Shown here: positions 1 to 18,119 of the stretch, in pieces | Numbering within the stretch: position 1 is the stretch's first letter | Layout of the letters: each line of letters begins with the position of its first letter | Translations under genes and position numbers: made by a program | The notes under the pieces: generated by a model | Seen by the model: the letters and a program-made list of their open reading frames with translations, nothing else | What the model was told of the DNA's origin: nothing | The model's database searches: none | From: Kiritimatiella glycovorans | GTDB taxonomy: Bacteria > Verrucomicrobiota > Kiritimatiellia > Kiritimatiellales > Kiritimatiellaceae | NCBI RefSeq assembly: GCF_001017655.1 | Contig: NZ_CP010904.1 | Coordinates: forward strand, 810,001-842,000 | Reading direction: 5' to 3' | DNA length: 32,000 nucleotides

Positions 1-2489
1 TTGAGCAACGCGGAACCGGAGGCGGTCAGGCTGGCGAGTGGTCCCTCGCGGGCATCGGAGAACGGCAGTAGATTGCGCAGCTTGCCCAGAGCGTTTTTGA
101 GCATGGTGAAGGGATAGGTCACCGCCGACCAGATCCCTTCGCCCAAGGTGACGAGCAGCTTCTTGCCCGCCTCGAAGAAGGTGGTGTCCCCGGCGAAGAA
201 GGAACGCACGGTGGCAAACATCTCCCGCAGGGTGCTGATGATCGGCAGATTCAGAATCGCCTGGCCGATCTGTCCGGCGGCGTCGGCCACCAGGCGTCCG
301 ATGGAGGTGAAGATGCCGGACATGAAATTCCAGACCCCGACCACCACATCCCGCGCCCAGCGGAACGGGGTGGCAAGAAAATCGTAGACCGCGCCGCCAA
401 TGGCCTTTAGACCGTCCAGCAGGGAGATGTCGCCGGTCAGCACCTGCCAGACCGCATAGACGATCTTCCCGGCGGCCACGAATGCCTCGCCGATCATGCG
501 CACGGGCAGCAGGAACTTGTAGATGAACTTGGTCGCTCCGATCAGGGACCCGACGAGGATCTTGCCGACCCAGACCACGCTGCGCACCACCACCGCCAGG
601 GCTCGGACGATGAGCGACAGGTTCCAGGCCACGATCTTCAACGCGAATGCCAGCCCCCGCAGAAGCACACCGGCGACGGTGCCGATAACCGTGCCGAAGG
701 TACGCCAGGACGACCCGTCGGTGGCGCTGGCCGCCACGCCGAAGATTTCCACCACTGAAAGGACCGCGCTGGCCAGTGCCGCATAGGCGCTCATCAGGGT
801 GCGGACGGTTGGTTCGAGGATGGCGCGGATGCGGCCAAAGGCATGGGAGAACGCGCCCCACAATCCGGCCAGAGCCTCGCGAACACGGTAATAAGCCTTG
901 AAGACGGTGACCACGAAACCCAGCAGTCCGGCGGATTCGAGCTTTTGGGCCAGTTCGGCCGACATCTGCCCGCCGCCGCCGCTGAGCGAACCCACCAGCT
1001 CTCTGATCCCCTGGAAGAGCAGCGTGACCTTGTTCCATGCCCCGGTGATGACATCCTGGATGCCGCCGAAGTTGGTTTCCCAGGCGCGTTTGAGCAGATA
1101 CACCGAAAGGATCACGCCCGCGATGATCGCGGTGACGGGCAGAAAATAGGTCGCGACCGCCGAACCCACCCCGGCCAGCGCGGCGCTGATGGCCACGAAC
1201 CCGGCCTTGATGGCGGGAAGCATGAGTCCCACCATGCCCACGGCGGCGGTGACGGCTCCGGCCACGACCAGAATGGTGCCGAAGGCCATGGACAGCCCCA
1301 GGATCACCCGGGTCACGCCCGGCATCGATTTGGCCATGCGCTGCAGGAACAGAATGAAGCGGGAGACCCCGTTGATCACCGGCGTGACCACCGGCAGCAG
1401 AGTGCGGCCCAGGATTTCGCTGAGGTTGGCCATCTGCTGGCGCAGGAGCAGAAACCGGGCTCCGATGTCCTGGTTCATGGCGTCAGCCATCTGTTCGGTG
1501 ACCGCCGTGCCGGTCTTCATGGCCCGGCCCACCGACTGGATATTGCCTTCGAGGCTCTCCATGCCCGCCGACATCTGCAACAGGAACTTGACCGCCTCGT
1601 CGGAGCCGAAGGCCTTCTTCAGCTTCACCTGGGCGGCGGCGTTGGAGAGGTCGGGGAACTGGCGCTTGATCTCCTGCAGGATGGGAACCACGCCCTTGAG
1701 ACGGCCGCTGGTGTCGGTGAAGGACAGCCCCAGCTCGTCCCCGGCCTCGGCCGCCTTCATGATGAACGCCTTGTACAGCGTGCCCGCCTCGGAGCCGGGC
1801 ATGGTGGTCTGAAGCTGGCCAAGCACGGCGAGCTGCTCGTTCAGGGGAATGTTGCTCGCCGCCGCCACCGCGCCGATGTTCTTGATGGCGTCGGCCATCT
1901 GGGTGCCATTGGTCTTGAACGAGGCCACGGTCTGCGCCATGGCTCCGGAAAAGGCGGTCGCCCATTCCATGTCGTTCATGTCGGCCATGATGGGCTTGAA
2001 GATCCCGTAGGCGGTGGTGAAGGTGCCGACCATCTCCTGGGTGGTGGCTTTGGTCGCCTTGGCGGTCATGGCGGCCATGGAGGTGAAGACGCCCACCGCC
2101 TCATCGCTGAGGTTGGACAGGGCCGATTTTACGTCATAGGTGGCGGTGATGAAGGCGGCCTTGTCGGCACCGGACCATTGGTTGGTGAAGGATTCGGCGG
2201 CGTCCTCGATGGCACGGAGATCCTGCACGCCCAAGGACGCCAGATCTCCCAGGGCCTTCTGGGTCGCGGTGGTGGAGGCGACCAGGGCGGCGGGCATGGC
2301 CATCAGGGCCAGTCCCGCCCCCAGCATCATGGTGCCTTGCTGGATGCGGTCCAGGTTGCGGGTCATCCGCTCGCTGGCATCCGCCACGGTGGAATCGAGG
2401 TCCATCATGGAACCACGGATGCGCTGCGCGTTCTGCGAGAACGCATCCTTCATCGATACCACTATGCCCAGTCCGAGATCGCCGTTCAT
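1..2489 (-). CDS. Phage tail tape measure protein (C-terminal part lies beyond window start)
   Basis: Absent from the ORF track because it has no stop in the window. Manual minus-strand translation from ATG 2489-2487 stays open to base 1 (about 829 codons): MNGDLGLGIVVSMKDAFSQNAQRIRGSMMDLDSTVADASERMTRNLDRIQQGTMMLGAGLALMAM...IKNIGAVAAASNIPLNEQLAVLGQLQTTMPGSEAGTLYKAFIMKAAEAGDELGLSFTDTSGRLKGVVPILQEIKRQF... This resembles a TP901/TIGR01760-type tape-measure core, followed by Gly/Ala/Val-rich hydrophobic helices. It lies directly after the tail chaperone. Confidence 0.85.
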   Translation of the reverse strand, partial: MNGDLGLGIVVSMKDAFSQNAQRIRGSMMDLDSTVADASERMTRNLDRIQQGTMMLGAGLALMAMPAALVASTTATQKALGDLASLGVQDLRAIEDAAESFTNQWSGADKAAFITATYDVKSALSNLSDEAVGVFTSMAAMTAKATKATTQEMVGTFTTAYGIFKPIMADMNDMEWATAFSGAMAQTVASFKTNGTQMADAIKNIGAVAAASNIPLNEQLAVLGQLQTTMPGSEAGTLYKAFIMKAAEAGDELGLSFTDTSGRLKGVVPILQEIKRQFPDLSNAAAQVKLKKAFGSDEAVKFLLQMSAGMESLEGNIQSVGRAMKTGTAVTEQMADAMNQDIGARFLLLRQQMANLSEILGRTLLPVVTPVINGVSRFILFLQRMAKSMPGVTRVILGLSMAFGTILVVAGAVTAAVGMVGLMLPAIKAGFVAISAALAGVGSAVATYFLPVTAIIAGVILSVYLLKRAWETNFGGIQDVITGAWNKVTLLFQGIRELVGSLSGGGGQMSAELAQKLESAGLLGFVVTVFKAYYRVREALAGLWGAFSHAFGRIRAILEPTVRTLMSAYAALASAVLSVVEIFGVAASATDGSSWRTFGTVIGTVAGVLLRGLAFALKIVAWNLSLIVRALAVVVRSVVWVGKILVGSLIGATKFIYKFLLPVRMIGEAFVAAGKIVYAVWQVLTGDISLLDGLKAIGGAVYDFLATPFRWARDVVVGVWNFMSGIFTSIGRLVADAAGQIGQAILNLPIISTLREMFATVRSFFAGDTTFFEAGKKLLVTLGEGIWSAVTYPFTMLKNALGKLRNLLPFSDAREGPLASLTASGSALL

Positions 2490-2660
2490 CTATCGCCGTT
2501 CCGTTTGCTCATGTTCAAAATCAAGTTGCCGCTCAAGGGCCTCGACGAACTGACGCCGGACCCTGAGCGGCAGCGAGCGGGTTTCCGACCAGCTCCAGTG
2601 CAGTCCGCCGTAAGCGAGAAAGAATGCGTCGCTTACAAGCGAACTCCAGGGAACAAAAAA
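2490..2660 (-). CDS. Predicted -1 frameshift extension of the tail assembly chaperone (G/GT-like long form)
   Basis: A slippery heptamer T_TTT_TTG (plus-strand caaaaaa, 2654-2660) sits in the zero frame (GCT TTT TTG) 7 codons before the chaperone stop. The -1 frame is open from there for about 55 codons (VPWSSLVSDAFFLAYGGLHWSWSETRSLPLRVRRQFVEALERQLDFEHEQTERR). It stops at TAG 2492-2490, directly abutting the tape-measure ATG at 2489. Confidence 0.55.
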   Translation of the reverse strand, partial: FFVPWSSLVSDAFFLAYGGLHWSWSETRSLPLRVRRQFVEALERQLDFEHEQTERR

Positions 2661-3316
2661 GCCGGTTCGGCCTCCAGACGGGTGCGGATCTTAGTGCCGC
2701 AGCCATCGCATTCGGTCTCGACCGAGGTGTCGATTCCCGCGTCGACCCGCAACATCTCCTGCCGCAGGGCGTTGCGGTCGCGCATCGACATTTCCGCCAG
2801 GCTCTTCTTGGAGGGAGCCTTGCCGTCGATGTCGAGGACGCGGATGAGCATGGCCGAGGTGATGTTGGGCTCGCGCAGGCTGGCCAGGCGTTTTTCCTTA
2901 TGGCCGTCAAGATATCCGAAGCGCACGGTTTTCTTCGAGCCGGGCAGTTTGAAGACGAACTCCCGCTCCTCGCCGTAGGGGGTAACCTTGAGATCCTCGA
3001 GATTGATGGTCACAAAGTTGGTCATGCGGCAGGCGCTGTTCGGGCAGCTCAGCTCCAGCTCCACCTCGTCGCCGAGGGAAATCTGGCGCAGGCGGACCAG
3101 GGCGAACAGCCGGTCACCCGAGAGCAGGTTCATCACCTCGGCGAGATCGGGATCGGTCTTCTCGCCCAGCCGGACGAAACAGTTGCGGAGCACCTGGTTG
3201 ATCGCCTCTCCGGAACGGATCAGGCGCTGGTTGGTGAGCAGTTCTTCCTCGGCCCCGGTCATTTCCCGAAGCTCGAGTTCAGGGCCGCTTGGCAGTTCAA
3301 AGCTGTACATGGTCAA
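2633..3316 (-). CDS. Tail assembly chaperone (T4 gp26 / 'T4 baseplate' PF12322-like by recalled pattern)
   Basis: 227-aa ORF between the tube and tape-measure genes. The pattern LPSG..ELELREMTGAEEELL...LLSGDRLFALVRLRQISLGD...CPNSAC and the C-terminal CDGCG resemble the 206-232 aa T4 gp26-like family. Its position and the downstream frameshift fit a chaperone role. Confidence 0.6.
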   Translation of the reverse strand: MTMYSFELPSGPELELREMTGAEEELLTNQRLIRSGEAINQVLRNCFVRLGEKTDPDLAEVMNLLSGDRLFALVRLRQISLGDEVELELSCPNSACRMTNFVTINLEDLKVTPYGEEREFVFKLPGSKKTVRFGYLDGHKEKRLASLREPNITSAMLIRVLDIDGKAPSKKSLAEMSMRDRNALRQEMLRVDAGIDTSVETECDGCGTKIRTRLEAEPAFLFPGVRL

Positions 3317-3325
3317 TCCTCCGGT

Positions 3326-3787
3326 TTAGGTCCAGTATTGGAAGCAGATGGTGAGCTTCTCGATGGTGTTCTCGGTGTTGCCGCCTTCGAGCTCGTCATA
3401 TTCGAGCGCCTTCACCCAGGCCCCGTGCAGGGTCCAGCGGCGGGTCTCGTTGCCGGTGCGGTCGTAGCGGACAACGTCGATGTCGCGCATGTAGTCGGCC
3501 GGAAGGCCGCCGGTGACAGCGTTCACGTCTACCTGTTTCTTGATCCATTCGCGGGCCGCCTCGTCGGAGCCATCCTGCAGGGTGCCTTTCTCGAGGGTGA
3601 TGTCCTCGAACTTGACCCGCCCCGCCACCTTCTGGTCGAACATCGAACCGGCCGGGGCGAAGGCCACTTCCTCGAATTCGGTTTTGGGCTCCTGTCCCTT
3701 GTGGAACAGGGCCACGTCGAAGCCGTTTACCTCGATGGCAAACTGCCAGTTCTGATAAAGGCTCTTAGGCATGTTTCCGCTTCTCAT
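3326..3787 (-). CDS. Contractile tail tube protein (T4 gp19 / PF06841-like)
   Basis: 153 aa: NWQFAIEVNGFDVALFHKGQEPKTEFEEVAFAPAGS...KFEDITLEKGT...RWTLHGAWVKALEYDELEGGNTENTIEKLTICFQYWT. This matches the conserved phage tail region / tube family pattern. It lies immediately downstream of the sheath gene. Confidence 0.8.
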   Translation of the reverse strand: MRSGNMPKSLYQNWQFAIEVNGFDVALFHKGQEPKTEFEEVAFAPAGSMFDQKVAGRVKFEDITLEKGTLQDGSDEAAREWIKKQVDVNAVTGGLPADYMRDIDVVRYDRTGNETRRWTLHGAWVKALEYDELEGGNTENTIEKLTICFQYWT

Positions 3788-3802
3788 AGCCGTATTCTCC
3801 CG

Positions 3803-5332
3803 TTAGATGATTTCTTTGAAGTCCGCGCCGGTGCTGGTCAGGATGAAGTTCAGCTCGATGAACTCCGCCGTTTTGGTCGGCTTGACGAACACGCGGGCCA
3901 CCATTTCGTTGCGGTCGATGACCGCCGGGGTGTTGGTCTCCTCGTCGCACTGAAAGGCGAAGTCGTAGAGGCCACCCTTGTCCTTGATGTCCTGCAGGAA
4001 GGGATTGATCAGGCGGCCGAGGGCACGCCAGGTCTGGGGATGGTTCGGCTCGAACACCACGAAGCGAGAGGACTCCGAGATGGCTTCCTCCATGTACATC
4101 ATCAGGCGGCGCACGTTGATGCGGTCCACGGCCGAGGGCTGGCTCTGCAGTGTCTTCTGCCCCCAGATGTTGATGCCGGTGTCGGGGAACACGGCGATGA
4201 CGTTGATCCCCTCCGGATAGAGCACATCGCGCTCGCCACGGCTGGTCTTGTAGGCCAGGGAGAGCGTGTTGAAGATGCGGCCACGGTCGATACCGGCGGG
4301 CGCGTTCCAGACGTTGGTCTTCTGGTCGCTGCGGGCGATGCAGCCAGCCACCGCGCCGCAGGGCGGCACCAGTTTCTTGCGCGAGTTGACCGGATCGCTG
4401 ATCTCCAGCCAGGGGAAATAGAGCGCCGCGTAGGAGGAGTTGAAGGCCGCGTGGCTGTACATCCCTTGTCCCTTGCGGAAGTCGACCGCTTCGAGCGGCT
4501 CCAGATGCATGGGCGTGTCGGCGATGAACAGCAGATCCTTGCGTCCTTCGGCATAGGTGATTCCAGCGTTGATGACCGGCACCGTGGTGACGCCGGGAAC
4601 CATCAGCAGATTCAGGGCGTCGATCTCGTCAAAGCCATAGAGGCCGGTATGCTGCGAGGGATCGCCGATGAAATCGGCATCGGCCAGATCGGTCAGTCCA
4701 TTGTCGCCGCCGCCGAGCGTGAACCCGCCCAAGGCCGGACGGTCGCCGGGCGTTCCCATTGCTGCTGCCAGATCCTGGACCAGGATGAAATCCGAACGGT
4801 CGTTGATCGTCAGCTCCACATGGTTGGGCAGCGTCTCGTCCATGCTCAGATCCTTGAACACCTCGACCACATCGCCTTTGTGCCGGACCACCAGGTTGAA
4901 ATGGTTGGCCGGGTCAAGGGAGCCGTCCTCGATGGAGACGGAGAGCCGGTCGCCCCAGACGCCTTCGTTCACGGCCTCGATCCGCAGGGCGTCGGCGGGC
5001 GTCGCCTCCCGGTTCTGCAGCACGATGGAAGACTTGAGCGCCGTCAGAGTGTCCCGGTCGGTTGGGTCGGTGAGATGGGCGATACGGATGACATAGAGGA
5101 CCGAGCCGCCGTTGTCGAAAAACGCCCGGGCGGCGTAGGCCAGATAGCTCTCGTTGATGTAGGAGCCGAAACGGTTGATGAACTGCTCCCAGCTCGTCAC
5201 CAGCACGGGCTTGTTGATGGGGCCTTTCTCGGCCACTCCGACCATGGCGGCCGACGAGGTCGAGATCTGCTTCACATAGAAACTGAAGTCCGTTTCCCGG
5301 GTGTAAATCCCGGGGGATAGATAGGTCGGCAT
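3803..5332 (-). CDS. Contractile tail sheath protein
   Basis: 509 aa with the N-terminus MPTYLSPGIYTRETDFS typical of phage, PVC and T4 gp18-type sheaths (PF04984-like). The size and the sheath-tube gene order also fit. Confidence 0.9.
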   Translation of the reverse strand: MPTYLSPGIYTRETDFSFYVKQISTSSAAMVGVAEKGPINKPVLVTSWEQFINRFGSYINESYLAYAARAFFDNGGSVLYVIRIAHLTDPTDRDTLTALKSSIVLQNREATPADALRIEAVNEGVWGDRLSVSIEDGSLDPANHFNLVVRHKGDVVEVFKDLSMDETLPNHVELTINDRSDFILVQDLAAAMGTPGDRPALGGFTLGGGDNGLTDLADADFIGDPSQHTGLYGFDEIDALNLLMVPGVTTVPVINAGITYAEGRKDLLFIADTPMHLEPLEAVDFRKGQGMYSHAAFNSSYAALYFPWLEISDPVNSRKKLVPPCGAVAGCIARSDQKTNVWNAPAGIDRGRIFNTLSLAYKTSRGERDVLYPEGINVIAVFPDTGINIWGQKTLQSQPSAVDRINVRRLMMYMEEAISESSRFVVFEPNHPQTWRALGRLINPFLQDIKDKGGLYDFAFQCDEETNTPAVIDRNEMVARVFVKPTKTAEFIELNFILTSTGADFKEII

Positions 5333-5334
5333 GG

Positions 5335-5592
5335 TTATTTCCTCCGCTTGCTGGTGGTCTTGGCCTCATCGGCTGCGGCGTCCTCGGTCGCCGTGGGTTT
5401 TTCCGGCTCCGGTTCCGCGCCGCCGGTCAGGTCGGTGATGCGCACCAGGCCGCGTTTTCCGGCGGTCTTGATCTCGGCGGAGAGGTCCATGCGGGCGATG
5501 CTCTTGCGTTCTCGCGGCCCGAGGTGAAGGGTTCCCTGGCCGGAGAGGTTGAACGTCAGGGGTTGGAACTGGAGGTTTCTGATCTCGATCAC
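5335..5592 (-). CDS. Small hypothetical phage protein (acidic, Lys/Arg-rich C-terminal tail)
   Basis: 85-aa ORF tightly packed between the 182-aa gene (stop 5605) and the sheath start (5332). No family recognised. Confidence 0.5.
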   Translation of the reverse strand: MIEIRNLQFQPLTFNLSGQGTLHLGPRERKSIARMDLSAEIKTAGKRGLVRITDLTGGAEPEPEKPTATEDAAADEAKTTSKRRK

Positions 5593-5604
5593 GGTTGTTC
5601 TCCT

Positions 5605-6153
5605 TTACGGTTGAATGGTTCGTTGCTCTGTCACGTCGCCGTGAAACTGGAAGGTCCGGTCCCGGATCAGCCGACCGTCGCGCAGGTCGCCGTCGTACAC
5701 CGGGCAGGATTCGATACGGATGCGTCCGGAGCTTTGCCGGAGGTTGGAGAGGTTCACCCGGGCCAGACCGCCCAGAGGAACCAGTTCAGTGAGGTTCAAA
5801 CTGCCCTGGTCGGCGATGGCGATCTCCGCGTGAAGCTGGAGGAACCGCGACACCGATTCGTGAAAACCGAGCAGTTCGGCCTCCCGGTCCACGGTCACCA
5901 CCAGATCGAAATCGAGGTGATAGAGCCTGGGAAACCGGCACTCCTCGAAACTCAGCTCCGCAACATTCTTCTCGAACAGGCGGCTCTGGCTGCGGCGGAA
6001 ACGGTCTTCCGTCAGCTTCGGCCCCTGGAGGATGACGCTGGGGGTGCGCTGGACCTCGAACAGGTCATCCGGGAACACCAGCACGGTGTCCGGGTGGATG
6101 ATCTGCTTGGCCAGGCGGATCAGTGTTTCTGTGACGGTCTGTATCGTGCTCAA
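5605..6153 (-). CDS. Putative tail completion / tail terminator protein (assigned by synteny)
   Basis: 182-aa ORF with a TTG start preceded by GGAGG. It is the first gene after the 34-bp repeat and occupies the slot between the head-tail joining genes and the sheath. No motif recognised. Confidence 0.45.
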   Translation of the reverse strand: MSTIQTVTETLIRLAKQIIHPDTVLVFPDDLFEVQRTPSVILQGPKLTEDRFRRSQSRLFEKNVAELSFEECRFPRLYHLDFDLVVTVDREAELLGFHESVSRFLQLHAEIAIADQGSLNLTELVPLGGLARVNLSNLRQSSGRIRIESCPVYDGDLRDGRLIRDRTFQFHGDVTEQRTIQP

Positions 6154-6177
6154 GGGACGCCTCCGTTTTCTGCTTGG

Positions 6178-6211
6178 TTACTTACCGGAAGCGCTGGCGA
6201 TGTGTCGGAGG
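6178..6211 (-). promoter_or_regulatory. Conserved 34-bp element, copy 1 (upstream of tail operon)
   Basis: The minus strand reads CCTCCGACACATCGCCAGCGCTTCCGGTAAGTAA. It matches 11588-11621 at 32 of 34 positions. It fills the gap between the stop of the gp10-like gene (6213) and the RBS and start of the 182-aa gene (6153). Confidence 0.5.
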
Positions 6212-6212
6212 C

Positions 6213-6698
6213 TCAAAGCGCGGAGCGGATCGCCTCGCGATAGTTCTGGAGGATCTGTTCGCGGTACTTCTCCATCACCGGATGCAGAAAGGGTCTGGCG
6301 GGGATGACGATGGTCGCGCCGTTCGGATGTTTAATGGTGGCTCCGTACTCCATGACGGCACCGATGTTCACCATGTCTTCACCGTCCTTGTTGACGGTGC
6401 CGCGCAGCAGGCCGACGAACGCCTTGTCGGCCATGATCTTCTGGGTGATGGCGTTGACGAGAAAGCCAGTGTCGATGAGCGCCTTGCTTGAGCCTTTGCG
6501 CAGGGTGGTGCTTTCGGCGAGTTTCACGAAGGCCTGTCCGCCCGGGGCCTGGGAGCGAATCCCCCGCTGGATCTCGCGCACCAGAAAAAGGGCGTTGCGG
6601 ATCGTGGCCTGACGCAGGGCCGTGGCCAGGCGCGGCCCCATGCCGGTGGTCAGCTTGGCGCGGGCCTTGTCCCAGTCACCGGTCCGCCTAACGCCCAT
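6213..6698 (-). CDS. HK97 gp10-family head-tail joining / tail component protein
   Basis: 161 aa containing ...IVIPARPFLHPVMEKY..., which is typical of PF04883-like proteins. It lies in the connector gene block and overlaps the upstream gene by 11 nt. Confidence 0.65.
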   Translation of the reverse strand: MGVRRTGDWDKARAKLTTGMGPRLATALRQATIRNALFLVREIQRGIRSQAPGGQAFVKLAESTTLRKGSSKALIDTGFLVNAITQKIMADKAFVGLLRGTVNKDGEDMVNIGAVMEYGATIKHPNGATIVIPARPFLHPVMEKYREQILQNYREAIRSAL

Positions 6699-7047
6699 TG
6701 AGCTTCACCAGTTGCAGGTTCTTGTGGGTGACGGCCCCGAAAAAGTGTTCTTCCTCCACACTCTGTATGCGATAGGTTTCCCGGTCTGCGGCCAAACGGT
6801 CTTCCCCCCGGACATCGGCATCCGGAAGAACGCAGGCGAGCGCGTCGATCTTGCCGCTCAGCTCCTCCGGCGGGGTTTCGTTCAGTTCGAGGGGGATGAC
6901 GGAGATTTCCGTGTATTGGGCATCGTCGGTGCCGTAGAGCCGCTCGCCGGGAACGACGCGCAGGACGCGTGCGGTCTGGCCGGAGGAGAGGATCAGCCGG
7001 GCGACGTCGGCCACGGCTTCGGCGCGTTCCCGGTCATTCAACAACAT
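6688..7047 (-). CDS. Head closure / head-tail adaptor protein (SPP1 gp16-like, by size and synteny)
   Basis: 119-aa ORF, translationally coupled on both sides by 11-14 nt overlaps. It lies between the gp6-like and gp10-like genes. Confidence 0.5.
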   Translation of the reverse strand: MLLNDRERAEAVADVARLILSSGQTARVLRVVPGERLYGTDDAQYTEISVIPLELNETPPEELSGKIDALACVLPDADVRGEDRLAADRETYRIQSVEEEHFFGAVTHKNLQLVKLNGR

Positions 7048-7498
7048 CGAGATCGATCCCTTGTTCGTAGATGACCGGCGTAAGGCCGCTCGGAGTCAGG
7101 ATGTAGGCTTCCTGATCGAGCTGGGTGGCCGGACGCAGCTCGGTGAGCCGCTGGCGGTAGTCGACGAGCAGATCGGCTTCGAGCTTGGCCCAATGGCCGG
7201 GCTGACCGGTTTTGTCCACCCGCTTGTCGCCGCTGGAAAAGGAGAAGGCGTTGGCGGTGGCCGAACGCATGACCTGGCAGGCGTGGATCTGCGCCATGAT
7301 AACCAGGAGCTCGCGGACCTCGCCGGTGGGATCGGGGGTGATCTCTCCGGCCGTGATCGTCAGCGATTGGTCGAGGTCACGGCCGACCCGGAAAACGGCC
7401 TTCCGGACGCATCTCTCCAGAGTCTGATCCTCGAAGAGAGATGCGCCCGGATCGGACAGGTCGAGCCGCAGGTCGGCGATCAGATCACTCAGCAGCAC
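7034..7498 (-). CDS. Head-tail connector protein (gp6-like)
   Basis: 154 aa. The N-terminus LLSDLIADLRLDLSDPGASLFEDQTLERCVRKAVFRV resembles the gp6-like DNA-packaging/connector family pattern. It follows the capsid genes. Confidence 0.5.
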   Translation of the reverse strand: MLLSDLIADLRLDLSDPGASLFEDQTLERCVRKAVFRVGRDLDQSLTITAGEITPDPTGEVRELLVIMAQIHACQVMRSATANAFSFSSGDKRVDKTGQPGHWAKLEADLLVDYRQRLTELRPATQLDQEAYILTPSGLTPVIYEQGIDLDVVE

Positions 7499-7844
7499 CT
7501 TGCAGACCCTCCAGACGGCTCTTGAGCGCGTCGATCACCGTGCGGCGTTTCTCGGTGTCCATGTAGCCTTTGAGGGTTTCCGGATTGGCTTCCTCGTTAA
7601 CCTTGGAAATGGCGTCGGTGGCGGAGAGTTTGCTCAGGTCCACCGGTTCCGCGTCCTGGTCAGGCTCTGGAGGGGCGAGCGGTTCCTGCTTCGGTTTGTC
7701 GGCCATGGCCAGGCGGCCGTTCTTGAGCGCCGCCTGGATCTGCTTGGTGAGGCGTTCCACCTCGACCACCTGACCGGGTTTGAGCTTCAACCCGGCGTCG
7801 GGGATCACCAGAACGCCGGGACGGATGTTCTTGATGCGATTCAT
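7485..7844 (-). CDS. Hypothetical phage head-associated protein
   Basis: 119-aa ORF directly after the major capsid gene. It has a Pro/Glu-rich linker and a helical C-terminal segment (LSKLSATDAISKVNEEANPETLKGYMDTEKRRTVIDALKSRL, possibly HeH/SAP-like). Confidence 0.5.
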   Translation of the reverse strand: MNRIKNIRPGVLVIPDAGLKLKPGQVVEVERLTKQIQAALKNGRLAMADKPKQEPLAPPEPDQDAEPVDLSKLSATDAISKVNEEANPETLKGYMDTEKRRTVIDALKSRLEGLQGAAE

Positions 7845-7862
7845 GTCACATCACCTCCAGGA

Positions 7863-8726
7863 TTACGGAACCAGTTTGACCTTGGCCATGATGTCGGGGC
7901 GGGTAATGCCCTGACCGATCTCGGACCACACCAGCCAGCCGGTCTTGAAGCGGGTCTTCTGATCGATGGACTCCGTCTTCAGGTTTTCGCGCACCGGCAT
8001 CTTTCCGACCTCTTCATCCGGGACGATGATGATCTCGTCCAACGGCATGGAGGCGGTCAGCAGAATGCCGCCGGTGCCGTAGTTCTTGATGACACCCTTC
8101 TGACGCAGCTCGAGCTTGGTCTGGGGATCGAGGTTCCAGCCGCGCATGTCGTTGAACCGGCGGCCGCGCATGACGATGTACTTCACCGACAGCTCCAGGT
8201 CCTCGATGATCGAGATGGCCTCGTTCAGCGCCTCTTCGGTGAGCAGGTCGCCGGTGACCTCGATGGTGTTGGTCGCCGGGATGGCCGAGGAGAGCACCGA
8301 GATGGTGCGGCGGTCCATCTCCTTGCGGATGGCGTCGGCGGCGCTGGTCTGGATGTCCATCAGCGTGCCGATGTTGCCGTTCTTGAGGACGGAAACGTCC
8401 ACCATCGGATTTGAGTGGATGCGGTTGGTGGGAAACTCGACCTCGTCCTTGCCCACCTCCTGTTCCTGAGCCTCACCTTCTTTACTGATCCAGTGGGCCT
8501 TGACCGTAGGCTTCTTCTGATAGACCGGTCGTTCGCCCTTGGGCAGCGTATGCTTGGTGAGCAGCAGCGAGGAGATCTCCTTGCGCTTGATCTCCTGTTC
8601 GATGGGCGCGGCGATGGCGGCGGCAAGCGCCTGCATGCCTTCCGGCGACTCGAGAGCCTCGCTCATGAGCCGCGCCATGGTTTCCATGTACTCCTGGGAA
8701 TGGATCTTCAACTGATTGGTTTTCAT
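7863..8726 (-). CDS. Major capsid protein, HK97 fold
   Basis: 287 aa, placed after the protease/scaffold and decoration genes. The segment ...TGDLLTEEALNEAISIIEDLELSVKYIVMRGRRFNDMRGWNL... fits the HK97-family MCP pattern. Confidence 0.75.
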   Translation of the reverse strand: MKTNQLKIHSQEYMETMARLMSEALESPEGMQALAAAIAAPIEQEIKRKEISSLLLTKHTLPKGERPVYQKKPTVKAHWISKEGEAQEQEVGKDEVEFPTNRIHSNPMVDVSVLKNGNIGTLMDIQTSAADAIRKEMDRRTISVLSSAIPATNTIEVTGDLLTEEALNEAISIIEDLELSVKYIVMRGRRFNDMRGWNLDPQTKLELRQKGVIKNYGTGGILLTASMPLDEIIIVPDEEVGKMPVRENLKTESIDQKTRFKTGWLVWSEIGQGITRPDIMAKVKLVP

Positions 8727-8744
8727 GTGCGTTGGCTCCTTGGG

Positions 8745-9110
8745 TTAGACAAGCAGGCGGAATTTGAGAACGCCGCTCCGGACGGAAATGGCCTGGGCGA
8801 TAACAAGCTGCCTGTTGGCGATGTTGCCGCCTTCGAGTTTTCCGGTGGCGGAAACCTTGAGGTTGTCTCCGGGATTGATCGTTCCCTCGAAAACATCCGT
8901 TTCGTAGATCCCGCCGCCGCAGTAAATGCCCGGCATTTCACCTCCGGCGTAGTCCTTGATCAGAATGCCGAACGAGCGAAGTTCGGGATCGGTGTTGACG
9001 GCGAACAGGTCGTCGCCGACCACGCGGACCACCTGGCCGAGCTGGCCGTCGCCCTGGATGTGGCCATCGCCATAGGCGAGGCCCCGGTGACACGGATTGA
9101 TGAATGACAT
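8745..9110 (-). CDS. Head decoration protein (lambda gpD-like / DUF2190-like)
   Basis: 121 aa between the scaffold and the MCP. The segment FGILIKDYAGGEMPGIYCGGGIYETDVFEG is reminiscent of gpD VGILAVAADQ...FYKSGTFRYEDV. Confidence 0.5.
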   Translation of the reverse strand: MSFINPCHRGLAYGDGHIQGDGQLGQVVRVVGDDLFAVNTDPELRSFGILIKDYAGGEMPGIYCGGGIYETDVFEGTINPGDNLKVSATGKLEGGNIANRQLVIAQAISVRSGVLKFRLLV

Positions 9111-9122
9111 GGTGTTTCCTCC

Positions 9123-11534
9123 TTATGCGTTGATTTGCGAATGTTCGGGAGATTCCTCGCCGACACGGTTGCGGTAAGCGGCCATGAACCCGTCGCGCAG
9201 ACGGTCCTCGAGCGACACCTTGCGGTCGTCCACATCGAGAGGCCGGACACCGGCGTCGCTGCGTAGCGGGGTTTCCGTCGATGCCTTGGCGGCGGGCTTG
9301 CCGCCCTGGTCGCTGTCGGCGGGTTTCTCTTCCTTGTCCTTGTCCGCTTTGGCCGACTTGGGCAGGCGCTCGTAAGCGGCCTCGGTGGCGGCGAAGGCTT
9401 CGTCGGACAGTTCGGCCAGGCGTTTCAGCTCGGCTTCCCGGTCCTCCTCGGACGCAAAGGAGAGCCCCTGCTTCTCCAGCCGGGTGAGCAGTTTCTTGGC
9501 GCGGGAGCGGCAGGCGGCCGCCTTTTGTTCGGCTTCCAGTTCCTGGACGCGCTTCTGCAGCTCGGCCACCTGGGCCTTGAGCTGCCGGTTTTCCTTTTCC
9601 AGGTCGGTAACGCGAGCGGGATCGCCTTCCTGCTGGGCCGGTTTCTTCTTGGCCGCGTCTGATTCGGTCTTGGCGGCCTGGTCATCGGTGGGTTTGGTTT
9701 TGTCTTCCATCGTGGAATCTCCTTCGGGTTGGGATTGGTCGGGCTGGCTCTGAAGGGACGCCACCTGCAGAATCCTGGCGTTCTCGTCCGCGCCCTTGCG
9801 GTCGAGCAGTCCCAGTCCGGTGAAAGTGACGCCGTGCAGAATCTCGAAAACGGGTTGGCCATTGAAATCACGGCCCTTGAATTTGCGCAGGTGGGTGCAG
9901 TAGTCGGCCTTGTTCTGGAAGCGCTTGTGACAGACCGAGCATTCGCCCTCCTGGTAGTCGCACTCCATGGAGACCTGGGAGATGATCCCGCGCTTCATCA
10001 GCTTGTAAGCCAACCGGGCGGCCGGGGTGTCGTGGACGTACAGCTCGCCGACGCATTCCACCCGGCCGCCGTTGTCGTCCTCCAGGTAGTCGGCGGCGAC
10101 AACGCCACCCACGATGTCGTTGAACTCCTGCGAATGCTGCAGATCGACCTTCTTGTTCACGGCCGTCATGTGCCGACCGGACAACTCCTCGGCGGTGAAG
10201 TGATCGCCGTTCTTGTTGGTCCCGGTGCGGCAGAGCACGAAGCTGAACTGGGGGTCGCCCGCCGAGCCGACATCCATGGCCTCGGTCGCGAGACGTTCGC
10301 CTTCGCCCAGCCGGATGTCCACGGGGATGCTGGTGTGGAAGTTCGCGGCGGCGGCCATCGGAACGGGTTTCTCCTCCCGCTCGGCGCTGGCCTTGGCCCC
10401 GGGGGCGCAGACGAACAGACGCTCCTTGGCGTTGGATGCCTCGCCGTGCTTGGAGGTGATGGCGTAGTGGTGATCCTTGGACTTCATCCGGCTCTGTTTG
10501 CCGAAGGAGCCGATGATCCGCTTCATCTCCTGCTCGTTGGGATAGGCGTGATCGCGGTAGGAAATCAGCCAGTGCGGAATGTGCTTGGCATTGCCGAGAA
10601 AGGTCTGGAAGAACTCGCTGGCGTTGGCCTTGGTGACGGTCTTGTGGTCGATCTCGTAATACTTGACCTTGGTGTCGGCCTTGATTTCGAGCCCTTCCCA
10701 ATAGGTCATGAGCCCCTCCACGAAGTGGTAGGCCCGCTCGTAGTTGGTGGTCGAAAACTCGGTGGCGTAGGGCGGATCGAAGTAGGCCAGATCCGCCTTG
10801 GCTTTCGGCAGCAGGTCGTTGATGTCCTGCCGGTGGGCCTTGTTCTCCTTGTCGTTGTCGAAGACCAGGGCGTTGATGCGCTGCAGGTTCTTGCGCAGAC
10901 GATCCTTGAACTCGTCTGGGGTGTCCTGGCGGCGGCCATAATCGGTGGACGACGAGAAGTGGCCGAAGCCACCCTTGCCGCTCATGCAGGTTTTGCCGAG
11001 GCCGAACAGGGCGATGTCTTTCTTGAAGCCGGAGAGCTTGTCGCAGTTGGCGCGGATGGTGTCGATCAGCGCATGGACGCCCTTGGCGAAGAAGATGCCC
11101 TTGAAGTTGTCCTGAACGAAGCTGCCCGCCTTGGCGTTGTCGGCCAGAAGCGCTTCGATCTCGTCCTCGCTCAGGCGAACCGAGTTGTTCTCGATGATCG
11201 CCTTGGCGGCGTGGTGGCAGTAGCGGAGCCGGTCGTTGGCGATGACCTGGAGGCCCTTGGTCTTGTACATGTAGGCCACGACCGCAGACCCCGAAAAGGC
11301 GTCGAGCACGGTGCCAACGCCTTCCGGGGTATGCTTCCAGATCCAGTCGACGAGCTTCTGCTTGCTGCCGATGTAGTTGGTGATGTACTTGGGGCGCTTC
11401 TCGGGAGGGAGCTCTTCAGGAGCGGACTGTTCGGCGGCCTCGGTCCCAAGCGCATCGGGATCGAGAGTCAGCGCCGCATCGGCCTCCAGTAGAAACGCCA
11501 GCCTTTCCAGGTCTGTGGCGAACAGTTCCATCAA
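9123..11534 (-). CDS. Fusion protein: D12-class N6-adenine DNA methyltransferase + HK97-type (S78-like) prohead protease domain + coiled-coil scaffolding domain
   Basis: Uninterrupted 803-aa ORF. Residues ~48-378 carry YIGSKQKL, DAFSGSAVV (FxGxG) and FDPPY (aa 252-256), which are Dam/D12 MTase motifs. Residues ~425-595 (NKNGDHFTAEEL..VDLQHS..VGGVVAADYLEDDNGGRVECVGELYV..AARLAYKLMKRGIISQVSMEC) match the HK97 gp4 protease pattern, with candidate catalytic residues H467 and S522. Residues ~640-730 form a heptad-like coiled coil (LEKENRQLKAQVAELQKRVQELEAEQK) with a charged tail, as in scaffolds. It occupies the protease/scaffold slot upstream of the MCP. Confidence 0.7.
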   Translation of the reverse strand: MMELFATDLERLAFLLEADAALTLDPDALGTEAAEQSAPEELPPEKRPKYITNYIGSKQKLVDWIWKHTPEGVGTVLDAFSGSAVVAYMYKTKGLQVIANDRLRYCHHAAKAIIENNSVRLSEDEIEALLADNAKAGSFVQDNFKGIFFAKGVHALIDTIRANCDKLSGFKKDIALFGLGKTCMSGKGGFGHFSSSTDYGRRQDTPDEFKDRLRKNLQRINALVFDNDKENKAHRQDINDLLPKAKADLAYFDPPYATEFSTTNYERAYHFVEGLMTYWEGLEIKADTKVKYYEIDHKTVTKANASEFFQTFLGNAKHIPHWLISYRDHAYPNEQEMKRIIGSFGKQSRMKSKDHHYAITSKHGEASNAKERLFVCAPGAKASAEREEKPVPMAAAANFHTSIPVDIRLGEGERLATEAMDVGSAGDPQFSFVLCRTGTNKNGDHFTAEELSGRHMTAVNKKVDLQHSQEFNDIVGGVVAADYLEDDNGGRVECVGELYVHDTPAARLAYKLMKRGIISQVSMECDYQEGECSVCHKRFQNKADYCTHLRKFKGRDFNGQPVFEILHGVTFTGLGLLDRKGADENARILQVASLQSQPDQSQPEGDSTMEDKTKPTDDQAAKTESDAAKKKPAQQEGDPARVTDLEKENRQLKAQVAELQKRVQELEAEQKAAACRSRAKKLLTRLEKQGLSFASEEDREAELKRLAELSDEAFAATEAAYERLPKSAKADKDKEEKPADSDQGGKPAAKASTETPLRSDAGVRPLDVDDRKVSLEDRLRDGFMAAYRNRVGEESPEHSQINA

Positions 11535-11587
11535 TGTCTCCGGTCAGTTTGCTGTGCTCTCCGCGACCTGCGGGGAGCGTTCAGCGA

Positions 11588-11621
11588 TTACTTACCGGAA
11601 GCGTCGGCGATGTGTCGGAGG
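11588..11621 (-). promoter_or_regulatory. Conserved 34-bp element, copy 2 (upstream of head operon)
   Basis: The minus strand reads CCTCCGACACATCGCCGACGCTTCCGGTAAGTAA. It begins 13 nt after the stop of the truncated upstream gene and ends 53 nt before the start of the 803-aa ORF. Confidence 0.5.
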
Positions 11622-11634
11622 GTGACTGCGAATT

Positions 11635-11826
11635 TCAGCGGGCGGGGTTCAGCCGCGCCAGAACGGCCTTGCCGCAGGCGTCGAGGGAGGGGTATTCGTC
11701 GCTCTCGGTGATCTCGGAAAAGACCCCGTCATAAGGTGAGCGGGACAGCCGGTGGTATTCGAGAAAATCCGCCGGAAGCGAGGTGGCACAGGACGATGAG
11801 GACGGGTTCGGGCACCTGATGCTGAT
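11635..11826 (-). pseudogene. 3' fragment of a truncated gene (possibly the preceding phage head gene)
   Basis: The minus-strand frame ends at TGA 11637-11635 and reads ...SIRCPNPSSSSCATSLPADFLEYHRLSRSPYDGVFSEITESDEYPSLDACGKAVLARLNPAR*. It contains no ATG, GTG or TTG and is closed upstream by an in-frame TAA at 11829-11827, exactly where GC content drops. Confidence 0.5.
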
Positions 11827-11924
11827 TTAATTTACTTCATTTGGAATGTGGTAACCGTACTCCGTAATTTGGAATAGAGTTCCATTAGACAATCGAAGGG
11901 GTCTATTTCTCCTGCCGCAGCACG

Positions 11925-12842
11925 CTATGCACTACGAGGTGCTTCTGTAGAATCCCTTTGAGCACGCGCCAAAGCCAAAAATCCACGTACATAGTCGATG
12001 CTATCGTCTGCCTCACGAATACCGAGGAATAACTGCTTGTCCACACCTGATTTTCCCAGCCGCACCGGGAAGACATCAAACCGGTCTGCGTATTCTTCGA
12101 CGATCCAGCGTGGCAAAGCTCCAACGCCTCGGCCGCTGGCTATCATTTGCAGCATGATGTCAGTTGTCTCGATCAGTTTGTGTCGTTTCGGGCTGATGCC
12201 CGCAGGCGTGAGGAACCGTGTATAAATGTCGAGCCGGTCAATGGTGATCGGATAGGTGATCAGGATTTCTTTGGATAATTGCTCCGGGCTCACATGGCTT
12301 GCTTGACGCAATGGATGTTGCGGGCCGACGACCAACACCTGTTCATAATCAAAAACTGACTCAAAAAGTAGACCTTTCTTGTGAAAAGGATCAGGTGTTA
12401 CCAACAAATCAATATCGTAGCTAAACAGTGCACCGACGCCCCCGAATTGAAATTTTTGCTTAACATCTAAATCGACCGAGGGCCATGCAGCCAGAAAATG
12501 CGATGCGATCTTCAGCAGCCACTGATAGCAAGGATGGCATTCCATGCCAATGCGCAACGTACCGCGCTCACCTCGCGCAAACTGCTCAATGCGTTCCTCA
12601 GCGTGGACAAATTGTGGCACTAGACGATTGGCCAAACCCAACAGGTATTCCCCTGTCTGGGTTGGGCACAAACTACGTCCCTCACGACGCCATATCGCAG
12701 CACCCAACTGATCCTCCAGCTTGCGAATGCTATGGCTGAGTGCGGACTGGGTGAGGTGTAGTTTTTCTGCGGCGGCCGTGAGTGAGCCATTTTGGTCGAC
12801 GGCACGGATAATTTCCAGGTGGATACGTTCAAGAATGGCCAT
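11925..12842 (-). CDS. metR: LysR-family transcriptional activator MetR
   Basis: Close resemblance to E. coli MetR: [20 protein letters not shown] vs [20 protein letters not shown], and [10 protein letters not shown] vs IECHSCIQWL. It is divergent from metE. The ATG at 12842 ([10 protein letters not shown]...) is preferred over the TTG at 12866. Confidence 0.85.
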
Positions 12843-12859
12843 TGGGGCACCTTTCACTA

Positions 12860-12893
12860 TGAGCAAATTTCATCGTTCTCTGAAAATATATCA
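12860..12893. promoter_or_regulatory. Two MetR-box-like sites in the metR-metE divergent promoter region
   Basis: TGAGCAAATTTCA (12860-12872) and TGAAAATATATCA (12881-12893) each match the enterobacterial MetR consensus TGAA-N5-TTCA at 7 of 8 defined positions. Confidence 0.4.
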
Positions 12894-12959
12894 TTTTACT
12901 TCATACATGCAAGCTGTATATTTAGCGCATGTGTTCAAAATCAAAAGAAAGGATCTGCA

Positions 12960-15851: not shown

Positions 15852-15940
15852 TGAGCGGTGGTCCCGGAAAACGGAGCCAGTGAGGGGCGGATAGACCGCA
15901 TCGGGTTCTCCCGGTAAAAAGGAGACCGAAAGGAGAACCG

Positions 15941-18115: not shown

Positions 18116-18119
18116 CGAA

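What the first reader, a model, noticed from the sequence alone, without database searches (positions are those of the whole stretch)
9123..11534. DNA adenine methyltransferase fused in frame to a prohead protease and scaffold: candidate capsid-packaged, co-injected methyltransferase
A single 803-aa ORF without stops joins three parts. The first is a D12/Dam-class MTase (YIGSK, FxGxG = DAFSGS, DPPY; nt ~11393-10401). The second is a domain matching the HK97 gp4-type prohead protease pattern (candidate H467 and S522; nt ~10262-9750). It carries an inserted CxxC-x10-CxH zinc-ribbon-like motif (CSVCHKRFQNKADYCTH, nt 9941-9891). The third is a coiled-coil scaffolding tail (nt 9710-9126). The ORF sits in the protease/scaffold slot immediately upstream of the decoration and major capsid genes. 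Proteases and scaffolds are targeted to the procapsid interior, so this architecture would place an MTase inside the capsid. That is analogous in logic to P1 DarB, to T4 internal proteins carrying capsid-targeting sequences, and to MuF-fused polyvalent proteins. A plausible role is protecting injected DNA from host restriction, or methylating DNA during or after packaging. I do not know of a characterised MTase-protease-scaffold fusion.
Basis: partly seen in the sequence, partly recalled or inferred. Interest (0 to 1): 0.8.

Follow-up and report, generated by a model that had tools for sequence, protein, structure and literature searches.

The report
Methyltransferase fused to phage head protease-scaffold
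A prophage gene joins a DNA-methylating enzyme to the protease and scaffold that build the virus head, a conserved design that probably loads the enzyme into the capsid, although in this genome the prophage is a truncated remnant.

Summary
ORF 9123-11534 (-) is one uninterrupted 802/803-aa gene with three modules joined by disordered linkers. They are a D12/Dam-type DNA adenine methyltransferase, an HK97/assemblin-fold prohead serine protease (invariant H467 and S522, plus a conserved CxxC...CxH zinc motif), and a coiled-coil scaffold.

New points:
- The fusion is not a sequencing error. It recurs in well over 150 independent contigs from many phyla, down to 43% identity. Variants carry two methyltransferases or an unknown ~90-aa domain.
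- A Shine-Dalgarno sequence plus start codon at M609 is conserved in 25/25 divergent relatives. The scaffold is therefore also made alone, as with lambda C/Nu3 and Mu I/Z. The protease has no start codon of its own.
- The zinc motif is a feature of the whole protease clade, not a private insertion.
- The window copy is a prophage truncated 253 bp upstream, lacking terminase, portal and MuF.
- The phage is about 95-97% identical in DNA across three phyla and lacks nine GC-rich palindromic hexamers entirely.

Capsid loading of the methyltransferase is the best-supported mechanism (about 0.55). Co-injection is untested. I found no paper describing this fusion. Databases call it only "DNA adenine methylase".

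The parts
9123..11534 (-). Full MTase-protease-scaffold ORF: 803 codons from TTG 11534, with the probable start at ATG 11531 (802 aa)
   Evidence: 100% identical to a Kiritimatiella glycovorans protein annotated 'DNA adenine methylase'. Matches PHROG 27806 over its full length.
10392..11393 (-). D12/Dam-class N6-adenine DNA methyltransferase module (aa 48-381). YIGSK is aa 54-58, DAFSGS is aa 78-83 (nt 11286-11303), and DPPY is aa 253-256 (nt 10767-10778).
   Evidence: Pfam PF02086 E=2.7e-25. Motifs invariant in relatives. Fold matches E. coli Dam. pLDDT 85-96.
10263..10391 (-). Disordered linker 1 (aa 382-424) between methyltransferase and protease. It contains the conserved HTSIPV motif that marks the N-terminal arm of the protease module.
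   Evidence: pLDDT <50 over aa 381-423 of the 802-aa model. Variable in length and sequence among relatives apart from HT(S/T). M393 is not conserved.
9756..10262 (-). HK97/assemblin-fold prohead serine protease module (aa 425-593). Candidate catalytic residues are H467 (nt 10134-10136) and S522 (nt 9969-9971).
   Evidence: AlphaFold pLDDT 88.6. Foldseek hits to herpesvirus proteases and to annotated prohead proteases. H and S invariant. Weak Peptidase_S78 and TIGR01543 hits.
9891..9941 (-). CxxC-x10-CxH zinc-finger-like motif (aa 532-548) inside the protease module
   Evidence: C532, C535, C546 and H548 are at least 90% conserved across the protease clade. The profile resembles C2H2 fingers.
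9621..9755 (-). Disordered linker 2 (aa 594-638) between protease and scaffold. It contains the internal ribosome-binding site and start codon.
   Evidence: pLDDT <50. Alignment.
9719..9724 (-). Internal Shine-Dalgarno sequence (AAGGAG), 8 nt upstream of ATG 9710
   Evidence: AGGAG(A/G) lies 7-9 nt upstream of ATG, GTG or TTG at the same aligned position in 25/25 divergent relatives.
9123..9710 (-). Nested in-frame scaffold gene (M609 to stop, 195 aa, about 21 kDa). Coiled-coil helix at aa 639-688 (nt 9471-9620). Conserved C-terminal tail LRSDAGVRPxDVDD...GFMAAYxxR at aa 757-790 (nt 9165-9266).
8745..9110 (-). 121-aa gene between scaffold and MCP, function unknown.
   Evidence: No hit in Pfam, PHROGs or NCBIfam. 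Its position is conserved in all intact copies.
7863..8726 (-). Major capsid protein (287 aa, HK97 fold, no delta domain)
   Evidence: NF042927 E=3.9e-90. phrog_2522.
11635..11787 (-). 3' remnant of the 117-aa phage gene that precedes the fusion gene in intact copies. Homology to all other copies ends at 11787, which is the truncation point of this prophage.
1..7844 (-). Rest of the prophage structural module present in the window: head-tail genes, neck (6213-6698), sheath (3803-5332), tube (3326-3787), a baseplate-like gene, and the start of the tape measure, which runs off the window.

Best explanation
The gene encodes a head-assembly polyprotein of a temperate contractile-tailed phage. It uses the protease-scaffold as a covalent vehicle to place a DNA adenine methyltransferase inside the procapsid.

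Proposed steps:
1. Translation from ATG 11531 gives the 88-kDa MTase-protease-scaffold chain.
2. Translation from the conserved internal SD/ATG at 9710 gives a 21-kDa scaffold alone, presumably in excess. This is the lambda C/Nu3 and Mu I/Z arrangement.
3. The shared coiled coil and C-terminal tail let both products co-assemble with the capsid protein. Each incorporated protease therefore drags one methyltransferase into the shell.
4. After shell closure the H467/S522 protease digests the scaffold and cuts the disordered linkers.
5. The folded 43-kDa methyltransferase is too large to leave through capsid pores. It stays as an internal protein and most likely leaves with the DNA at the next infection. 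There it would methylate the incoming genome before host restriction enzymes act.

Shown here: the three folds, the invariant catalytic motifs, the conserved nested start, the absence of a separate protease start, conservation of the fusion, and its gene position.

Inferred: co-assembly, cleavage at the linkers, retention in the head, ejection, and protection.
For: - Fusion conserved. It occurs in 78 genome loci and 79 viral contigs at 43-100% identity, from many phyla. About 20 of the 44 closest 50%-identity cluster representatives of the protease domain carry the methyltransferase.
- Purifying selection. Synonymous codon changes greatly outnumber non-synonymous ones in all three modules, for example 83 against 17 in the methyltransferase for L012. 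The methyltransferase and protease catalytic motifs are invariant.
- Nested scaffold start conserved in 25/25 relatives. The alternative start codons GTG and TTG occur where Met is replaced.
- No conserved start for the protease alone. M393 is replaced by Leu in close relatives.
- The N-terminus of this protease clade carries varied additions: MT-PR-SC, MT1-X-MT2-PR-SC (about 1290 aa, the two methyltransferases 42% identical), MT-X-PR-SC and X-PR-SC.
- The AlphaFold model is beads on a string, with two linkers of about 40 disordered residues.
- In intact copies the gene lies in the order terminase, portal, MuF, then this gene, then MCP, and it is the only protease candidate there.
- The phage is under strong restriction pressure. 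Nine palindromic hexamers expected 10-48 times each are absent, while none of 1222 non-palindromic hexamers is absent.
- Precedents for capsid-targeted, ejected anti-restriction proteins exist in P1 DarB and the T4 CTS proteins (PMC9024508).
- From my own knowledge: the C-terminal part of the HK97 protease is a capsid-targeting signal that can load foreign proteins.
Against: - No virion proteome, methylome or expression data exist for this phage.
- A related phage with a stand-alone protease-scaffold encodes the orthologous methyltransferase (47% identity) as a separate gene upstream of its terminase. The enzyme can therefore serve the phage from the cytoplasm.
- The protease might release the methyltransferase before assembly, or degrade it inside the head.
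- The enzyme's target sequence is unknown. Oligonucleotide statistics do not single out GATC.
- The copy in this window belongs to a prophage lacking terminase, portal and MuF. Here the mechanism can operate only if those functions are supplied from elsewhere.
Confidence: 0.55

Rival explanations
1. The methyltransferase works in the cytoplasm, like ordinary phage orphan methyltransferases. It methylates replicating phage DNA before packaging. The fusion only couples its synthesis to late head-gene expression. The enzyme is cut off before assembly, or is destroyed inside the procapsid, and is not a functional virion component.
For: An orthologous stand-alone methyltransferase gene sits in the late/packaging module of a related phage. 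The long disordered linker would allow early autocleavage. Nothing here shows virion association.
Against: Expression coupling does not need a covalent fusion. The fusion has nevertheless been kept through divergence to 43% identity, and has been rebuilt with two methyltransferases and other N-terminal domains. The protease has no start of its own, so the two are obligatorily linked at synthesis.
Confidence: 0.27
2. The methyltransferase is encapsidated but acts inside the head. It methylates DNA as it is packaged, with SAM diffusing in or already bound. Only packaged DNA is then marked, and the host chromosome is spared. Ejection into the next cell is irrelevant.
For: The same architectural evidence as for capsid loading. 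This reading would explain why a potentially toxic enzyme is tethered to the procapsid interior.
Against: I know of no precedent. Densely packed DNA is a poor substrate, and each enzyme molecule would need a supply of cofactor. Known capsid-loaded anti-restriction proteins act after ejection (PMC9024508).
Confidence: 0.1
3. The methyltransferase domain has a non-catalytic role as an internal DNA-binding head protein, for example in organising or piloting the genome.
For: Internal proteins without enzymatic roles exist in other phages (my own knowledge). The domain is a DNA binder.
Against: The SAM-binding and DPPY catalytic motifs are invariant across 37-70% identity relatives and in both copies of the tandem form. 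This points to selection on catalysis.
Confidence: 0.05
4. The single ORF is an assembly or frameshift artefact that joins two genes.
For: None found.
Against: The same uninterrupted ORF is present in more than 150 independent contigs and several closed genomes. More than 100 protein clusters of 98-100% identity have the same 800-802 aa length.
Confidence: 0.01

Closest known systems
Lambda C/Nu3 and Mu gpI/gpZ nested protease-scaffold genes
   Same: One ORF encodes a protease followed by a scaffold. An in-frame internal start gives the C-terminal scaffold alone. The gene lies between portal/MuF and MCP.
   Different: Here a 43-kDa DNA methyltransferase (two in some relatives) precedes the protease. 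The protease has the HK97/assemblin (S78-like) fold with a zinc motif, whereas lambda C is a ClpP/S49-type protease. Expression of the nested product is inferred from the conserved SD and start codon, not demonstrated.
HK97 gp4-type prohead protease (MEROPS S78, COG3740, assemblin fold)
   Same: Same fold, a His/Ser pair with similar spacing, the same head-module position, and the capsid-binding part C-terminal to the catalytic domain.
   Different: Sequence scores fall below the Pfam and TIGRFAM cut-offs. The clade has a CxxC...CxH zinc motif after the catalytic Ser strand. It is fused to a long coiled-coil scaffold and to N-terminal cargo.
P1 Dar system (DarB methyltransferase/helicase packaged in the head)
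   Same: A DNA-methyltransferase-containing protein is placed in the capsid and is believed to enter the cell with the DNA to defeat restriction (PMC9024508).
   Different: DarB is a separate 250-kDa protein. It is targeted by a 30-residue N-terminal signal and helper proteins (DarA, Hdf, DdrB, Ulx), not by covalent fusion to the protease-scaffold. I found no sequence relationship.
T4 internal proteins and Alt with capsid-targeting sequences
   Same: Cargo is directed to the scaffold core, trimmed by the prohead protease, retained in the head and ejected. IPI* is an anti-restriction protein.
   Different: T4 uses a short cleavable N-terminal peptide on separate proteins. Here the targeting module would be the whole protease-scaffold, C-terminal to the cargo.
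MuF (SPP1 gp7) polyvalent proteins
   Same: Multi-domain virion-delivered proteins that carry enzymatic effector domains, including methyltransferases. Intact copies of this phage carry a 1529-aa MuF protein two genes upstream.
   Different: The ORF studied has no MuF domain. Its carrier is the protease-scaffold, which enters through the scaffold core rather than by association with the portal.
Encapsulin cargo loading
   Same: An HK97-fold shell is filled with enzymes through a C-terminal targeting segment or by fusion.
   Different: Encapsulins are not viruses and have no protease, portal or DNA. The resemblance is in logic only.

Membership tests
D12-class (Dam-type) N6-adenine DNA methyltransferase, Pfam PF02086 | Profile match above the curated threshold | tested here: met
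   90 bits against a cut-off of 22, E=2.7e-25, aa 54-269.
D12-class (Dam-type) N6-adenine DNA methyltransferase, Pfam PF02086 | SAM-binding FxGxG-type motif and catalytic DPPY motif present and conserved | tested here: met
   D78-F-G82 and D253-P-P-Y256 are invariant in relatives. The model matches E. coli Dam structures.
D12-class (Dam-type) N6-adenine DNA methyltransferase, Pfam PF02086 | Methylates adenine in a defined DNA motif | not testable with these tools
   No REBASE comparison or methylome was available. Oligonucleotide statistics do not discriminate.
HK97-family prohead serine protease (S78 / COG3740 / assemblin fold) | Assemblin-like fold | tested here: met
   Model pLDDT 88.6. The top PDB hits are herpesvirus proteases at probability about 1. 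198 BFVD hits at E<=1e-3 include annotated prohead proteases.
HK97-family prohead serine protease (S78 / COG3740 / assemblin fold) | Conserved catalytic His and Ser | tested here: met
   H467 and S522 are invariant in 43 sequences down to 23% identity. They lie inside the stretch that aligns to Peptidase_S78 positions 51-117.
HK97-family prohead serine protease (S78 / COG3740 / assemblin fold) | Sequence-profile membership (Pfam PF04586 or TIGR01543 above cut-off) | tested here: not met
   17-19 bits against a cut-off of 21, and 18 bits against a cut-off of 59. It is a divergent clade that only fold comparison recognises.
HK97-family prohead serine protease (S78 / COG3740 / assemblin fold) | Gene lies between portal and MCP in a head module | tested here: met
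   Intact copies have the order TerL, portal, MuF, 170 aa, 117 aa, this gene, 120 aa, MCP. The phage G homologue gp19 lies between the portal and the MCP.
HK97-family prohead serine protease (S78 / COG3740 / assemblin fold) | Cleaves scaffold or capsid proteins during maturation | not testable with these tools
   Needs biochemistry or virion proteomics.
Nested protease/scaffold gene pair (lambda C/Nu3, Mu I/Z type) | In-frame internal ribosome-binding site and start codon yielding the C-terminal scaffold | tested here: met
   AAGGAG lies 8 nt before ATG 9710. The equivalent is present in 25/25 divergent relatives, including GTG and TTG variants.
Nested protease/scaffold gene pair (lambda C/Nu3, Mu I/Z type) | Two protein products observed | not testable with these tools
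   No expression data.
Capsid-targeted, ejected anti-restriction proteins (P1 Dar, T4 IP/Alt) | Protein present in the mature virion and delivered to the infected cell | not testable with these tools
   Inferred only from the architecture.
MuF polyvalent proteins | MuF (PF04233) domain in the same polypeptide | tested here: not met
   No MuF hit in the ORF. MuF is in a separate 1529-aa protein in intact copies.

The most novel reading that the evidence does not exclude
The zinc-bearing prohead-protease-scaffold of this phage group is a natural, modular cargo-loading platform. Whatever is fused to its N-terminus is carried into the capsid and delivered to the next host. Known fusions are one or two DNA methyltransferases of different specificity and an unknown ~90-aa repeat domain. 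Together with a giant MuF protein and near-total avoidance of GC-rich palindromes, this pre-loaded methylation would help one temperate phage lineage keep about 95-97% DNA identity across at least three bacterial phyla.
Probability: 0.3. Interest if true: 0.85.

Novelty: new variant of a known kind. Interest (0 to 1): 0.64.

Why it matters
If the methyltransferase is loaded through the protease-scaffold, this would be a third route for arming virions against restriction. The known routes are short targeting peptides (T4, P1) and MuF fusions. It would be a purely covalent route, readable from sequence alone.

It would also give a natural template for packaging foreign enzymes into HK97-fold capsids.

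It may help explain how a temperate phage can be found almost unchanged in Kiritimatiellota, Thermodesulfobacteriota and Gammaproteobacteria.

In practical terms, hundreds of database entries named only 'DNA adenine methylase' are in fact the head protease and scaffold of their phage.

Tried and rejected
- Megablast of the prophage against 50,697 phage records found nothing. tblastn found only partial hits: a methyltransferase in Erysipelothrix phage phi1605, and the protease domain in Bacillus phage G and Vibrio jumbo phages.
- An internal start for the protease at M393 is rejected. The Met is not conserved, and the SD-like run lies 13 nt away.
- I tried to infer GATC specificity from site statistics. 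GATC and TGATCA are not depleted, while GGATCC and CGATCG are absent. Many unrelated palindromes are also undepleted, so this does not discriminate.
- P0127 looked like a stand-alone protease-scaffold, but its contig is cut and the frame is open to the contig end. P0131 and P0147 are true stand-alone forms.
- The ~90-aa 'X' repeat, the 121-aa neighbouring gene and the 170-aa and 117-aa upstream genes have no Pfam, PHROG or PDB match.
- The promoter/terminator scan of 9000-12000 was uninformative.
- Seven literature searches found no description of a methyltransferase-prohead-protease fusion or of this cross-phylum phage. The library lacks most subscription journals, so absence is not proof.
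The full-length model therefore rests on 16 sequences.
Full report
**What is in the window.** The minus-strand ORF 9123-11534 is open for 803 codons. The TTG at 11534 is followed directly by ATG 11531, which has GGAG 7 nt upstream. Public records annotate the 802-aa form. The product is 100% identical to a Kiritimatiella glycovorans protein named only 'DNA adenine methylase'. It matches PHROG 27806 ('DNA methyltransferase') end to end at 1722 bits. The sequence family is therefore already in databases, but only its first third is recognised there.

**Three modules.**
- *Methyltransferase.* Pfam places a D12-class methyltransferase at aa 54-269, with E=2.7e-25. The motifs Y54-G-K58, D78-F-G82 and D253-P-P-Y256 are invariant in relatives of 37-70% identity.
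- *Protease, by sequence.* For aa 425-593 the sequence profiles give only sub-threshold hits to Peptidase_S78, S78_2 and TIGR01543.
- *Protease, by fold.* I built a 43-sequence alignment from a full HMMER scan of 1.84 billion representatives and predicted the structure, obtaining pLDDT 88.6. Foldseek ranks herpesvirus assemblins first in the PDB, with probability about 1. In BFVD it finds 198 viral proteins at E<=1e-3, many annotated as prohead or head-maturation protease or XkdF. The best is Bacillus phage G gp19 at 2e-17, and that gene lies between the portal and the MCP of phage G.
C532, C535, C546 and H548 are at least 90% conserved throughout the clade, including stand-alone proteases. 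The zinc motif is therefore a clade character and not a private insertion.
- *Whole protein.* The full-length model shows confident methyltransferase and protease domains, a 50-residue helix and further helices in the tail, and two disordered linkers of about 40 residues. The same model hits E. coli Dam (E about 2e-6) and the assemblins.

**A nested scaffold gene.** ATG 9710 (M609) is preceded by AAGGAG at a spacing of 8 nt. In 25 of 25 relatives spanning about 45-99% identity, an AGGAG(A/G) lies 7-9 nt upstream of a start codon at the same aligned position. The surrounding linker is otherwise unconserved. Where Met is replaced, the codon is GTG or TTG. This is the lambda C/Nu3 and Mu I/Z arrangement (my own knowledge): the scaffold is made alone, and a smaller amount of the long form carries the protease. 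M393, at the start of the protease module, is not conserved. The protease is therefore only ever synthesised with the methyltransferase attached. The scaffold part has a conserved coiled coil and a conserved C-terminal tail, LRSDAGVRPxDVDD...GFMAAYxxR. That tail is the likely capsid-binding element.

**The fusion is real, old and variable.**
- The genome collection gave 78 loci and IMG/VR gave 79, at 43-100% protein identity. They come from Thermodesulfobacteriota, Verrucomicrobiota/Kiritimatiellota, Gammaproteobacteria, Acidobacteriota, Myxococcota, Armatimonadota, Nitrospirota, Planctomycetota, Chloroflexota and others.
- Synonymous codon differences far exceed non-synonymous ones in each module.
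- Architectures among relatives are MT-PR-SC, MT1-X-MT2-PR-SC (about 1290 aa, the two methyltransferases 42% identical and both with DPPY), MT-X-PR-SC, X-PR-SC and plain PR-SC. X is a repeated ~90-aa domain with no Pfam, PHROG or PDB match.
- A related phage with a plain PR-SC gene has the orthologous methyltransferase (47% identity) as a separate gene upstream of its terminase.
- The protease N-terminus is thus a site where cargo has been added, and fusion is a derived state.

**Context, and a correction.** Downstream of the ORF lie a 121-aa gene without any family match, then the MCP (NF042927, E=3.9e-90), neck, sheath and tube. Upstream in the window there is no portal or terminase. Instead there are metR, metE, a glyA fragment, an IS3 transposase and the tmRNA gene, in DNA of lower G+C. 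Comparison with other copies shows why. All of them continue upstream with a 117-aa gene, a 170-aa gene, a 1529-aa MuF protein, the portal, the large terminase and a tyrosine integrase. Homology with the window stops at nt 11787, inside the 117-aa gene. The window copy is therefore a prophage remnant that still has intact ORFs. Other genomes have different breakpoints about 120 bp upstream of the start codon, followed by an HTH_17 gene and restriction or GTPase cassettes.

**Mechanism.** The best-supported reading is covalent cargo loading. The long form co-assembles with free scaffold and the capsid protein. The protease then clears the scaffold and cuts the linkers. The folded 43-kDa methyltransferase remains in the head. 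The architecture, the obligatory linkage at synthesis, the alternative cargoes and the conservation all point this way. Precedents exist for capsid-targeted, ejected anti-restriction proteins in P1 DarB and the T4 CTS proteins (PMC9024508). What the enzyme does next is inference. The rival readings, with my estimates, are:
- Capsid loading, most likely with action after ejection: about 0.55.
- A purely cytoplasmic role, with the fusion serving only expression coupling. The stand-alone orthologue supports this: about 0.27.
- Action inside the head during packaging: about 0.10.
- A non-catalytic DNA-binding role: about 0.05.
- An assembly artefact: about 0.01. The comparative data exclude it.

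**The phage itself.** Copies sharing about 95-97% nucleotide identity over at least 11.8 kb of shared sequence (about 22 kb between intact copies) occur in closed or isolate genomes of very different bacteria. These include Kiritimatiella glycovorans, Desulfosarcina alkanivorans, Desulfofustis glycolicus and Ectothiorhodospira shaposhnikovii. By protein identity of 98-99% they also include Geoalkalibacter subterraneus, Mangrovibacter phragmitis and Pasteurella multocida. The 153-aa tube protein is found unchanged in 2083 data blocks.

In 42.8 kb of the phage, nine palindromic hexamers expected 10-48 times each are completely absent: GCCGGC, CCGCGG, GGCGCC, CGATCG, GCGCGC, CAGCTG, GGATCC, CGCGCG and GGGCCC. 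None of 1222 comparably frequent non-palindromic hexamers is absent. The host part of the window shows no such gaps. Restriction is evidently a dominant selective force on this element. That fits an anti-restriction role for the fused methyltransferase, but does not prove it.

**Novelty and score.** Nested protease-scaffold genes, HK97-type proteases and capsid-loaded anti-restriction proteins are each known. Their combination as a conserved MTase-protease-scaffold polyprotein with exchangeable cargo was not found in seven literature searches. Databases name it only as a methylase. I rate it a new variant of a known kind, with interest 0.64. The claim is specific and testable with virion proteomics and methylome sequencing of any intact lysogen.

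Noticed in passing
window 1-11787; loci L001-L027, L079-L085: The prophage is about 95-97% identical in DNA in isolate or closed genomes of three phyla: Kiritimatiellota, Thermodesulfobacteriota and Gammaproteobacteria. It also occurs in many MAGs. Its 153-aa tube protein occurs unchanged in 2083 data blocks. I found no paper on it.
   Followed up: partly
window 1-11787, and L083 + L177 (42.8 kb composite): Nine GC-rich palindromic hexamers are completely absent despite 10-48 expected occurrences each. They are GCCGGC, CCGCGG, GGCGCC, CGATCG, GCGCGC, CAGCTG, GGATCC, CGCGCG and GGGCCC. No non-palindromic hexamer of similar expectation is absent, and host DNA at 18000-32000 shows no such gaps. 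CTAG is also depleted (4 observed, 33 expected).
   Followed up: yes
window 11787-17903: The prophage is truncated inside the 117-aa gene at nt 11787. It abuts a lower-G+C segment (50-57%) that carries metR, metE, a truncated glyA and an IS3-family transposase. That segment ends at the 3' side of the tmRNA gene (17547-17903, minus strand). This looks like an IS-associated replacement of the integrase-to-MuF part of a phage originally integrated at ssrA.
   Followed up: partly
L083:4449-9035 (intact copies; absent from the window): A 1529-aa protein has an N-terminal MuF domain (aa 5-280), a weak endonuclease VII-like stretch (aa 321-366) and about 1100 residues of unknown function. It is a candidate polyvalent virion-delivered protein two genes upstream of the fusion gene.
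   Followed up: partly
L036, L040, L043, L047, L049, L050, L055, L064, L069, L078 (ORFs of about 1290 aa): Relatives carry two diverged D12 methyltransferases in tandem (42% identical, both with DPPY). They are separated by an unknown domain, and all of this is fused in frame to the protease-scaffold.
   Followed up: partly
P0126, P0135, P0140, P0143, P0146, P0161; L059:10001-12115: A repeated ~90-aa domain (W.ET..E.RYRVR.P..F..SFR...LEG.DGV..I.GKL...VPEG....M.VQS..F.....W....A..W...H) sits between the methyltransferase and the protease, or N-terminal to the protease. It has no Pfam, PHROG or PDB match.
   Followed up: partly
L081:1-2100, L082:1-2270, L003:7898-9880: In some genomes the DNA about 120 bp upstream of the fusion gene is replaced. 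The replacing cassette has an HTH_17 gene on the opposite strand plus either a type IIG-like N6_Mtase/Eco57I gene or a GTPase gene. This suggests a recombination or insertion hotspot in the 104-nt intergenic region.
   Followed up: partly
BFVD hits A0A6J5N5R9 and A0A6J5RFH1: Uncultured phage proteins of 620-680 aa annotated as ferritin/Dps-domain proteins contain the same prohead-protease fold. Other cargo-protease fusions therefore probably exist.
   Followed up: no
CAXXHC010000001/4 (L032-L035) and OZ252029.1 (L052, L053, L062, L063): Single MAG genomes carry four copies each of related elements with the fusion gene.
   Followed up: no
window 18081-22510: Very long overlapping ORFs lie in several frames in 65-70% G+C DNA: 1443 aa and 1057 aa on the minus strand, 982 aa on the plus strand. 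The 1443-aa ORF has no Pfam hit. I did not resolve which of them, if any, is a real gene.
   Followed up: no
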